Below, one piece after another: positions 13,385-14,478 of a DNA stretch of 56,971 bases. The translations under genes and the position numbers were made by a program. The stretch is taken from NCBI GenBank assembly GCA_030065195.1, contig JASJDE010000004.1:1-56971 (forward strand), written 5' to 3'. Position 1 is the stretch's first letter; every line of letters begins with the position of its first letter. The notes under the pieces were generated by a model, which was not told the DNA's origin, ran no database searches, and worked only from the letters and a program-made list of their open reading frames with translations. Origin of the DNA: Erythrobacter sp. (lineage in GTDB: Bacteria; Pseudomonadota; Alphaproteobacteria; Sphingomonadales; Sphingomonadaceae).

Positions 13385-13415
13385 AGGCCGTCTGCTCTCA
13401 AAGAGCGGGCGGCCT
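13385..13415. terminator. Hairpin between convergent genes, probable terminator
   Basis: AGGCCGTCTGCTC-tcaaa-GAGCGGGCGGCCT stem (with G-U pairs). Confidence 0.6.
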
Positions 13416-14478
13416 ATTTCGTTCCGGGCTGCGCGCTTTCGATCGCTGCGACCTCATCGTCGGTCAGGGGGGCGAATTGGACGCGGACCAGGTCCGGACG
13501 CGACTGCGCCGCTACCACAGCCGGTATCGTAACGATTTCTTCGCCACGCCGGATGCGTACTTGCGTATCGGCGGAAGCGTCGTCAGCTTCTCCGCTTTCG
13601 GACAGTTGCGGCCCGTCCGCATAGTCGAGGGCCGTATCCGTCCTGGCATCGATGACACTACCCGAGCCGGTGCCGACATTGAGCCGCGAGCCTGTGACCG
13701 CGATCTGTGCCGGAAGGATTTTTGCCATGATCGCGAATTTCGGCATCACCGATGCATCGGACAGTTCATAGGCTCCCGAACTGTCATACTTGAAGCGCAG
13801 TTGACCGCTCTGCTCTTCGACCACGCGAACATCGATACCGGTGCCGAAACCTTTGGCGGATTTGAGCGTCTCGCGTCCGTAGATGATGCCGCGTACGAAT
13901 ACGACCGGTTCGGTAAGAGTGCTGAGATATTGTCCGCAGTCGCCGCGCTGGACGAACGTTGCCATCTCGTCCCTTGCAAGAAAGCGCTGTCCGATATCCT
14001 CGATCTGGTAAATGCTGGCCGACTGGAAATTGATCCCCGCATCGACGGATGTCTTGGCCTTGTCGAAAACCCCTTTGAATGGGGCGGGAATGCCGAGGTC
14101 GGTGCTGAGCGTGGAATTCGATGTCCAACGCGGCATGCTGGCCCATTGTTCGACGGGCACCATATCGGTCGGCAGGGTGCATTTGCGGGTGATCAGGTCA
14201 AGCTTGTTGTTGACCGCGAGCACCGATCCGAGGTCGTAGGCCGGCCCGTTGATCGCCACGAGGCGATAGCTGTAATATTCGTTGCGCGGGCTGCCGGCGG
14301 TGGGTCCGCCAAGCTGCATCTGGAGCGTATCGGCGAGCTCCTGCTTCGCTTCGAAATAGCTGATCAGCTTGTCGGACGACTTGCTCATCACCGGGCCGGG
14401 ATTGGCCGCGCACGCGCCCAGTGCAGCCACCGCGACCGCCAACGCTGCTGCCCCGAACAATTTCTTCGAAATAGTCAC
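13414..14478 (-). CDS. Hypothetical lipoprotein with gasdermin-like core
   Basis: GGGAGGGG SD then GTG; signal [19 protein letters not shown] lipobox; fold call is by pattern only. Confidence 0.65.

What the first reader, a model, noticed from the sequence alone, without database searches (positions are those of the whole stretch)
13414..14478. Exported gasdermin-like lipoprotein with no neighbouring protease
Seen: a type II signal peptide ([19 protein letters not shown]), then a core with the ordered segments [31 protein letters not shown]...[30 protein letters not shown] and [10 protein letters not shown]...[26 protein letters not shown], plus two internal Cys and a roughly 100 aa tail. Known: bacterial gasdermins show this order (short strand and turn, Ser/Thr-rich amphipathic hairpin 1, central hydrophobic strand, hairpin 2, closing F-G/A strand). 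Described ones are cytoplasmic, N-terminally Cys-acylated and usually encoded beside a protease that removes a short C-terminal inhibitor. Inference: a gasdermin-fold protein lipidated through the Lgt/LspA route and acting from the periplasm or outer membrane, for competition, secretion or defence, triggered by a distant protease, redox or a ligand. The fold call is by eye from recalled family patterns.
Basis: partly seen in the sequence, partly recalled or inferred. Interest (0 to 1): 0.8.

Follow-up and report, generated by a model that had tools for sequence, protein, structure and literature searches.

The report
Exported lipid-anchored gasdermin-fold protein family
This gene encodes a protein that carries a lipoprotein-type export signal and is predicted to fold like the gasdermin cell-death pore proteins, so it likely punches membrane pores from outside the cytoplasm, whereas the bacterial gasdermins described so far work from inside the cell.

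Summary
The gene (14478→13414, minus strand, 354 aa) has a lipobox at Cys23. No Pfam family or PDB sequence matches it. About 100 relatives were found; 70 of 87 aligned ones score as lipoproteins, and two core cysteines are near-invariant. Two AlphaFold models both match bacterial gasdermins best (Foldseek E about 1e-4; Z 7.9–8.6, moderate), with CDC-like toxins next. Four strands show conserved alternating hydrophobicity, and the core is predicted to self-associate through two different faces (0.57 against controls of 0.00). It misses the bacterial gasdermin profile, so it is a separate family. No protease lies beside the window copy. One relative, however, directly precedes exported caspase-like and trypsin proteases with intact active sites (1 of 5 distinct sites). 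The 'tail' is a variable loop plus a conserved strand and helix, not a simple inhibitor peptide. Best reading (0.4): a dormant, membrane-tethered pore, likely released by proteolysis in the envelope, that damages its own cell. A toxin aimed at neighbours is the main rival (0.28). Eight literature searches and four look-ups in the scan's earlier notes showed no exported gasdermin lipoprotein. No pore or function has been shown.

The parts
13414..14478 (-). Gene for the exported gasdermin-fold lipoprotein (354 aa, GTG start)
14484..14488 (-). Shine-Dalgarno-like GGAGG, 5 bases before the GTG
   Evidence: sequence
14410..14478 (-). Type II-like signal peptide (residues 1-22) and lipobox Leu-Gly-Ala-Cys23; Ala at +2
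   Evidence: 70 of 87 aligned members score as h-region plus lipobox
14308..14391 (-). Long N-terminal helix (residues 30-57); the part from about residue 39 aligns with the start of gasdermins (alpha-1 'thumb' region)
   Evidence: (model 39 aligns with chain residue 3 of 7n50 and 7n51)
13711..14370 (-). Gasdermin-fold core (about residues 37-256)
14179..14181 (-). Cys100, conserved in 86 of 87 rows; probable disulfide partner of Cys181 (inferred, distance not measured)
13936..13938 (-). Cys181, conserved in 87 of 87 rows
13990..14127 (-). Predicted membrane hairpin 1 (residues 118-163): two strands with alternating hydrophobicity and a short helix between them
   Evidence: low pLDDT at 121-150
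13756..13881 (-). Predicted membrane hairpin 2 (residues 200-241)
13492..13710 (-). Variable, low-confidence loop (residues 257-329; 6-95 aa across the family); candidate cleavage region
13429..13491 (-). Conserved C-terminal strand plus P-[ST] turn and amphipathic helix (residues 330-350), modelled with high confidence; candidate latch
   Evidence: (motif in 54 of 85 against a shuffle mean of 5.7)
13385..13415 (.). Stem-loop between the two convergent genes, probably a terminator (1 found, 1.9 expected by chance, so position is the only argument)
12760..13359 (+). Convergent outer-membrane beta-barrel gene; a neighbour, not an obligate partner
   Evidence: present without the gene in 4 of 10 non-carriers, and absent between the gene and the ABC permease in L017 and L018
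14605..15735 (+). tgt (queuine tRNA-ribosyltransferase); marks the insertion site

Best explanation
The gene encodes a protein with a lipobox signal and a predicted gasdermin fold that is likely exported and lipid-anchored on the periplasmic side of a membrane, likely kept dormant by its C-terminal strand-and-helix, likely released by a cut in the exposed loop made by an envelope protease, and then predicted to self-associate into what would be a beta-barrel pore in its own cell's envelope, likely as a self-sacrificing defence. Shown in the sequence and alignments: the signal, lipobox, cysteine pair, amphipathic strands, variable loop and conserved C-terminal element. Predicted: the fold and the two-faced self-association. 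Inferred: lipidation by Lgt/LspA, a disulfide bond, the latch role, proteolytic triggering, the target membrane and the defensive role. In the protease-linked form (L009) the adjacent exported caspase-like and trypsin proteases would be the trigger. In the solitary form (this window) it would be a housekeeping periplasmic protease or one brought by the invader. Confidence is about 0.9 for the fold and export, about 0.75 that it forms pores, and 0.4 for the whole mechanism.
For: Fold: the Foldseek top hit is Runella gasdermin 7n52 for both models (E 2.9e-4; E 1.1e-4). In VIA-align, 14 of the top 16 rows are gasdermins for each model and the other two are CDCLs (Z 8.2, rmsd 4.6, 176 aligned; Z 7.9, rmsd 4.6, 176 aligned; Z 8.6, rmsd 4.5, 176 aligned). 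Export: lipobox-like in 70 of 87 rows; five members lack the lipobox cysteine but keep a hydrophobic N-terminal helix, which would anchor them in the inner membrane, so tethering to the producer seems to be what is conserved. LspA is encoded in G000. Hairpins: alternation scores 1.5-2.3 against a core median of 0.58, over 78 rows. Self-association: score 0.57, best control 0.00, pLDDT at least 68, runs agreeing in at least 68% of contacts. That mark was reached by 20 of 30 solved pairs and 1 of 23 single chains, but the calibration used two copies, not four. The two faces are residues 76-99/246-250 and 53-73/110-113/162-171. Latch: conserved element after a free loop (dN/dS 0.15-0.73 in the loop against 0.03-0.13 in the core); the alignment to inactive bacterial gasdermins runs on to model residues 350-354 against chain residues 255-267, their inhibitory-peptide region. 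Protease link: in L009 the homolog's stop codon overlaps the first in-frame start of a caspase-like gene, followed by a trypsin and a caspase-Sel1 gene; an OmpA/WD40-caspase converges on them and a TIR-TPR gene is divergent. All four proteases have hydrophobic N-termini and intact catalytic motifs. This mirrors the 43 of 50 bacterial gasdermins found beside proteases (bioRxiv 10.1101/2021.06.07.447441, passages).
Against: Only 1 of 5 distinct sites has an adjacent co-oriented protease. Of five same-genus carriers at the tgt site, 4 have no Peptidase_C14 match, including genomes 97% and 99% complete. G000 (87% complete) has no homolog of the L009 proteases, and its one caspase-like gene has no signal peptide. 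A similar exported caspase-trypsin pair occurs without the gene (L094), and 0 of 20 other caspase regions held a homolog, so the L009 link could be co-location in a cassette. No Arg motif is significantly enriched in the loop (RG in 16 of 76 against 10.9 expected, p = 0.055). Strand 333-336 aligns with pore-state gasdermins, so a cut in the loop might remove part of the pore domain rather than only an inhibitor. Z near 8 is moderate: the tool warns that such values are common, and CDCL versus bacterial gasdermin is Z 8.7 (PMC11952106 section 10). The window site is a housekeeping operon, not a defence island. The oligomer pass may reflect likeness to solved gasdermin rings, and no full-length control was run.
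Confidence: 0.4

Rival explanations
1. An antibacterial toxin that works like the CDC-like toxins of Bacteroidota: a lipoprotein shed on vesicles or by contact, activated by a protease on a neighbouring cell, and forming pores in that cell.
For: CDCLs carry SpII signals and are activated by a protease on the target cell (PMC11169675, passages). CDCLs are the next-best fold match (Z 5.1-6.1). Solitary genes are also typical of pyroptolysins, which act from outside the cell (bioRxiv 10.64898/2026.10.05.756811). Distribution is patchy, 7 of 211 in the genus. One member looks like a soluble signal-peptidase-I form (L045) and one has an extra C-terminal domain (L046).
Against: The window protein has no receptor-binding domain, no paralog partner (single copy) and no co-distributed immunity candidate; the neighbouring barrel gene is not tied to it. 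Members with an uncleaved-looking membrane anchor could not easily be released. The core is under strong purifying selection.
Confidence: 0.28
2. A non-lethal, self-assembling envelope channel that works like CsgG: a lipoprotein ring in the outer membrane that releases or admits macromolecules.
For: It is a lipoprotein with four amphipathic strands per subunit and predicted self-association. Purifying selection is strong and GC content is host-like. In L019, L020 and L047 it lies among other exported proteins of unknown family.
Against: No cargo or accessory gene is shared across the five sites, and those exported neighbours have no homolog in G000. Bacterial gasdermin pores are 18-28 nm wide (PMC13631336, passage), which would be hard to keep harmless.
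Confidence: 0.12
3. A gasdermin-derived lipoprotein that no longer inserts into membranes and serves as a binding or scaffold protein in the envelope.
For: The structural match is moderate (TM-scores 0.27-0.39). The confident oligomer contacts lie in the globular part, not in the hairpins. No trigger is evident at the commonest site.
Against: Alternating hydrophobicity is kept in all four strands across members that share only about 20% identity, as expected if they still insert.
Confidence: 0.12
4. A pore controlled by redox or by a partner rather than by proteolysis: the Cys100-Cys181 bond, or a ligand, locks the fold.
For: The two cysteines are the most conserved residues and the only ones in 79 of 87 cores. 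A disulfide-controlled gasdermin is known from Trichoplax (PMC13631336, passage cut short; that reduction activates it is recalled).
Against: By their place in the sequence both cysteines lie outside the hairpins, where a stabilising disulfide is ordinary for an exported protein (inference).
Confidence: 0.08

Closest known systems
Bacterial gasdermins (Runella 7n52, Bradyrhizobium 7n50, Vitiosangium 7n51/8sl0; NCBIfam NF051890)
   Same: Best structural match; similar size; two amphipathic hairpins; a lipid near the N-terminal helix; a short C-terminal element after a flexible loop; in one locus, caspase-like proteases with TPR/WD40-type repeats next door.
   Different: Signal peptide and lipobox instead of a cytoplasmic self-palmitoylated Cys3/4; a longer N-terminal helix; a near-invariant cysteine pair; no profile match; usually no adjacent protease; where proteases are adjacent, they carry export signals too.
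Pyroptolysins (bioRxiv 10.64898/2026.10.05.756811)
   Same: Bacterial gasdermin fold used from outside the cytoplasm; mostly solitary genes.
   Different: No CDC-like Ig domain here (the tail is a low-confidence loop plus one strand and one helix). A lipobox is present here; the word 'lipoprotein' does not occur in that paper's main text.
CDC-like toxins (CDCLs) of Bacteroidota (8g32, 8g33, 9ccp; PMC11169675, PMC11952106)
   Same: SpII lipoprotein signal, giant beta-pore superfamily, activation by proteolysis; second-best fold match.
   Different: Lower Z than gasdermins. CDCLs studied are gene pairs, with an N-terminal propeptide, a receptor domain on the long form and, in B. fragilis, an immunity lipoprotein; none of these is seen here.
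Unannotated gasdermin-like clusters of the AlphaFold database (PMC10584675, Fig. 5c)
   Same: Structure-only gasdermin homologs without Pfam annotation.
   Different: The passages read mention no signal peptide or lipoprotein. Cluster membership could not be checked, so overlap with their diverse 'cluster 3' is not excluded.

Membership tests
Bacterial gasdermin (bGSDM) | Gasdermin twisted beta-sheet core | tested here: met
   Predicted models; top hit 7n52, E 1.1e-4 to 2.9e-4, Z 7.9-8.6, rmsd 4.5-4.6, 176 aligned. Moderate scores.
Bacterial gasdermin (bGSDM) | Two amphipathic hairpins (four strands per subunit) | tested here: met
   Alternating hydrophobicity at 122-130, 143-151, 209-219 and 225-239
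Bacterial gasdermin (bGSDM) | Sequence-profile match (NF051890, cut-off 100 bits) | tested here: not met
   1 of 87 members at 13.2 bits, E 0.058; the window protein has no match. PADLOC gave no gasdermin hit. PF26164 appears only as an Atlas lead at 0.83-0.84.
Bacterial gasdermin (bGSDM) | Cytoplasmic protein with self-palmitoylated Cys3/4 | tested here: not met
   Signal peptide with lipobox Cys23; the position aligned with chain residue 3 is about residue 39, which is not Cys
Bacterial gasdermin (bGSDM) | Short inhibitory C-terminal peptide after a cleavable loop | tested here: inconclusive
   A conserved strand and helix follow a variable loop; alignment ranges overlap both the last core strand and the peptide region. 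No residue-level alignment was seen.
Bacterial gasdermin (bGSDM) | Adjacent protease gene (43 of 50 in the reference set) | tested here: not met
   None in the window; 1 of 5 distinct sites in the family
Bacterial gasdermin (bGSDM) | Forms large pores and kills after cleavage | not testable with these tools
   Only self-association was predicted
Pyroptolysin | C-terminal CDC-like Ig domain | tested here: not met
   Residues 257-329 have pLDDT about 48-54 and no strands; compact members end about 30 residues after the core
CDCL | SpII signal peptide | tested here: met
   (pattern rule, not SignalP)
CDCL | MACPF/CDC core with helical bundles, diglycine and HTH motifs | tested here: inconclusive
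   CDCL rows score Z 5.1-6.1, below the gasdermins; the motifs were not checked
CDCL | Adjacent long/short gene pair | tested here: not met
   One copy in G000; no tandem paralog in the loci scanned with the family profile or listed
CsgG-type secretion channel | CsgG fold or Pfam match | tested here: inconclusive
   No Pfam match; a fold that is not listed is not thereby excluded

The most novel reading that the evidence does not exclude
Periplasmic pyroptosis: bacteria have moved a whole gasdermin death pathway outside the cytoplasm. Exported caspase-like and trypsin proteases with TPR, WD40, Sel1 and OmpA domains sense an intruder in the envelope (a phage injection machine, a periplasm-invading predator, a rival's effector) and cleave a pre-anchored gasdermin. 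Its Lgt-added lipid does the job of the self-attached palmitate of cytoplasmic gasdermins, at the same end of the same helix. Solitary copies such as this one would be tripwires for the intruder's own proteases.
Probability: 0.25. Interest if true: 0.9.

Novelty: new variant of a known kind. Interest (0 to 1): 0.72.

Why it matters
[quoted passage not shown] A family that is exported, lipid-anchored and probably disulfide-bonded would be a further way of using the fold, on the periplasmic side of the bacterium's own envelope. It joins the gasdermin fold to the SpII export used by CDCL toxins, which bears on the open question of how gasdermins and MACPF/CDC proteins are related. It also offers a candidate substrate for exported bacterial caspase-like proteases, which are common in this genus (19 of 100 genomes had a caspase-family match, many with signal peptides) and for which I know of no substrate (recalled). 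Locus L009 supplies gene and proteases together, so the test is direct.

Tried and rejected
Sequence searches that found no family: Pfam, PDB sequences by single protein and by profile (one chance hit at E 1.2), PADLOC, NCBIfam. No CsgG or other lipoprotein channel was listed among the rows. Viral structures gave nothing at E ≤ 0.001. Phage and plasmid records gave no match with 5 queries, nor did viral contigs. The phylum draw's single hit (1 of 400) was a signal-peptide chance match to an M48-like lipoprotein, judged by eye. The order draw gave 0 of 200. The metagenome pattern scan gave 12 loci, of which 3 were true members and 9 chance. A search for known bacterial gasdermins, wanted for a profile-profile comparison, found 0 of 301 genomes with no positive control, so that comparison was not made. 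An Arg-based cleavage motif in the loop was not significant in four patterns (p 0.055-0.20); 81 of 83 loops do contain Arg or Lys. The convergent barrel gene as an immunity partner was rejected. A general link to caspase loci was not found: 0 of 20 regions that I picked from the matches. No RNA holder was listed for the gene. The scan's earlier notes had nothing by sequence or place and no gasdermin lipoprotein by words. Literature searches without a description of such a family; most subscription papers are not in the library, and bioRxiv supplements (for example the pyroptolysin sequence lists) could not be seen.

Full report
Observation. The finding is a minus-strand ORF, 14478→13414, 354 aa, starting at GTG with GGAGG five bases upstream. 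It lies between a convergent outer-membrane beta-barrel gene and a divergent tgt, inside the queA-ABC transporter-tgt region (gene names other than tgt and the ABC ATPase read from the sequences). It is single-copy in G000 and has host-like base composition. Close relatives carry Erythrobacter, Porphyrobacter or Sphingomonadaceae labels, so the host is probably of that group. No Pfam, NCBIfam, PADLOC or PDB-sequence match names it.

A family. One search gave 27 relatives and one search gave 75 representatives at 50% identity, down to about 22% identity. Alignment A2 holds 87 of these, the window protein included; I left out fragments and some near-duplicates. By my pattern rule, 70 of 87 have a hydrophobic stretch plus a lipobox-like Cys 6-20 residues before the conserved helix. 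Nine have a hydrophobic N-terminus without a scored lipobox, 4 are truncated and 4 score as neither. By eye, three of the nine do have the cysteine, five (P0039, P0047, P0055, P0063, P0083) look like uncleaved membrane anchors, and one looks like a type I signal. Cys100 is kept in 86 of 87 and Cys181 in 87 of 87; 79 of 87 cores have exactly two cysteines. That fits a disulfide in an exported protein (inference). The ESM Atlas places the protein near unnamed clusters of 88-162 members, one labelled 'putative lipoprotein' (scores 0.95-0.96). The nearest gasdermin-labelled cluster scores 0.83, a lead only, and the recognition value was below the tool's mark.

Fold. The AlphaFold model of the window protein (pLDDT 76.5, pTM 0.69) has Runella gasdermin as top Foldseek hit (E 2.9e-4), followed by fungal RCD-1 and other gasdermins. 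In the wide structural search the first 12 rows are gasdermins, then a CDCL (Z 8.2, rmsd 4.6, 176 aligned). The second look gives Z 8.6. A compact 44%-identical relative from L009, folded without its signal (pLDDT 82, pTM 0.81), gives the same picture (E 1.1e-4; Z 7.9, with 14 gasdermins and 2 CDCLs in the top 16). The two models share most of their alignment, so they are not fully independent. The scores are moderate: the tool warns that Z near 8 is common, and a CDCL scores 8.7 against a bacterial gasdermin (PMC11952106, section 10). What persuades is that one superfamily fills the top of every list in a sensible order, and unrelated folds fall below Z 4. Only 1 of 87 members touches the NCBIfam gasdermin model (13 bits against 100). 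It is therefore a distinct family with the gasdermin fold.

Anatomy. Over 78 rows (9 near-duplicate or garbled rows dropped), hydrophobicity alternates along four strands, residues 122-130, 143-151, 209-219 and 225-239, with window scores of 1.5-2.3 against a median of 0.58. These are the expected two membrane hairpins. The structural alignments start near residue 39 against gasdermin residue 3, the palmitoylated cysteine of bacterial gasdermins (bioRxiv 10.1101/2021.06.07.447441 and 10.1101/2023.04.20.537723, passages). The lipobox cysteine thus sits about 16 residues further out at the same end of the same helix. After the core comes a loop of 6-95 residues that evolves almost freely (dN/dS 0.15-0.73 in 4 comparisons, 1 saturated), then a strand, a P-[ST] turn and an amphipathic helix (motif in 54 of 85 against a shuffle mean of 5.7 and maximum of 14; dN/dS 0.09 and 0.21 in 2 comparisons, 3 saturated). 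Alignments reach residues 339-345 even against pore-state gasdermins that lack any inhibitor, so the strand is probably the last strand of the pore domain and the loop is an insertion. Only the helix reaches into the region of the inhibitory peptide of 7n50, 7n51 and 7n52. I saw ranges, not residue pairs. Four copies of residues 28-256 gave a self-association score of 0.57 against a best control of 0.00, with pLDDT at least 68 and at least 68% agreement between runs. The mark was reached by 20 of 30 solved pairs and 1 of 23 single chains, in a calibration with two copies only. One copy uses two different faces, as an arc or ring requires, and these faces hold conserved residues (D94, R98, Q164, D170). 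The pass may reflect likeness to solved gasdermin rings.

Neighbourhoods. The gene is rare and patchy: 7 of 211 same-genus genomes, 5 of 400 in the family, one of them truncated, 0 of 200 in an order draw, and no true hit in 400 from the phylum. These searches score only a few candidates per genome. Five distinct sites have context. (1) The interval before tgt: the window and L003, L010-L012, L017-L020, L035, L038, L047-L050, some of which may be the same genomes. In 10 of 10 non-carriers tgt follows the ABC permease, barrel or queA gene directly, and L047 has lost the 5' two-thirds of the gene. (2) L009: the homolog's stop overlaps the first in-frame start of a caspase-like gene, followed by a trypsin and a caspase-Sel1 gene. 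A convergent OmpA/WD40-caspase of 1,657 aa and a divergent TIR-TPR gene flank them. All four proteases have signal-like N-termini and intact catalytic motifs, and the trypsin motif DSCQGDSGGP points to Arg/Lys specificity (established knowledge). (3) L045: a type-I-signal form alone among housekeeping genes. (4) L046: a lipoprotein with an extra C-terminal domain after dnaX, with an S41 peptidase 3 kb away on the other strand. (5) L037: directly after a DUF6127 gene and an M15 peptidase of the prophage lysis type, near an IS-like remnant (the prophage and IS readings are recalled). Against a general protease link: 4 of 5 tgt-site carriers tested have no caspase match; G000 lacks homologs of the L009 proteases; 4 of 5 other carriers have a caspase somewhere but only L009 has one adjacent, against 19 of 100 in the genus at large; a related caspase-trypsin pair exists without the gene (L094); and 0 of 20 other caspase regions hold a homolog. 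About 70 distant members have no context here.

Mechanism. I commit, at 0.4, to a dormant pore tethered to the periplasmic face of the producer's membrane, released by a cut in the loop and lethal or growth-arresting to the producer. Tethering by lipid or by a membrane helix is the conserved trait; no receptor domain, partner or immunity gene is seen; and the one informative locus copies the gasdermin-plus-protease layout with every protease apparently exported. Ala at +2 would send it to the outer membrane by the E. coli rule (recalled; not known to hold here), while the helix-anchored members point to the inner membrane, so the target membrane is open. The main rival (0.28) is a CDCL-like toxin for neighbours: CDCLs have SpII signals and are activated on the target cell (PMC11169675, passages). 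A benign channel, a non-inserting relic and redox control follow.

Comparison and novelty. It works like a gasdermin by fold and anatomy, but fails membership on profile, location, lipid chemistry and usual gene context. It lacks the Ig domain of pyroptolysins (abstract, passages and parts 1-2 of 3 of the main text read) and the gene pair of CDCLs. Eight literature searches listed no paper describing an exported gasdermin lipoprotein, judged from titles, abstract openings and the passages named here. The AlphaFold-cluster paper mentions unannotated gasdermin-like clusters without export signals in the passages read (PMC10584675); overlap with them is unchecked. A 2026 review's passages describe only cytoplasmic-type bacterial gasdermins (PMC13631336). 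Subscription papers and bioRxiv supplements were out of reach. Verdict: a new variant of a known kind, interest 0.72.

Noticed in passing
L009:7786-20000 and L021:741-5714 (G083): Cassette of TIR-TPR, the gasdermin-fold lipoprotein, three caspase-like proteins and a trypsin, all four proteases with signal-like N-termini; a copper-oxidase gene, an RND pump and an integrase-like gene lie a few kb away.
   Followed up: partly
L094:5014-11583: Two lipoprotein-like caspases and a trypsin in a row, related to the L009 pair, with no gasdermin-fold gene.
   Followed up: partly
L019:7012-11364, L020:7021-9875, L047:9339-13041: Four exported proteins of no Pfam family cluster at the queA-tgt site in another lineage; one has a weak ClpP-related hit (E 0.0027, below cut-off).
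   Followed up: partly
L046:9564-10733 and window 24396-26219: The distant lipoprotein homolog and the window's low-GC patatin gene end in what may be the same small C-terminal domain (BLASTP E 0.009, weak).
   Followed up: partly
L037:370-2410: A family member directly downstream of a DUF6127 gene and an M15 peptidase, the position where spanins follow endolysins in lysis cassettes (recalled); single case on a short contig.
   Followed up: partly
L047:9812-10330; P0102 and P0031: Decay of the gene: a 5' deletion in one genome, and what looks like a split copy (134 + 152 aa, both on a contig of 5,118 bases) in another.
   Followed up: partly
window 21492-23630: Three co-oriented minus-strand ORFs (257, 310 and 151 aa) without a significant Pfam match in the two tested, between a methyltransferase-like gene and parA; several Cys-rich motifs.
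   Followed up: no
L022:30-2511 (G000 contig C114): Cytoplasmic caspase-like gene behind an alpha/beta-hydrolase-like gene; a possible separate conflict system in this genome.
   Followed up: partly
L027:1111-3384 (G000 contig C149): Large exported trypsin-like protease (open frame 1,163 aa), unlinked to the gene; a possible trigger candidate.
   Followed up: partly
L113:2365-10695: Cytoplasmic caspase flanked by three large related genes of unknown family.
   Followed up: no
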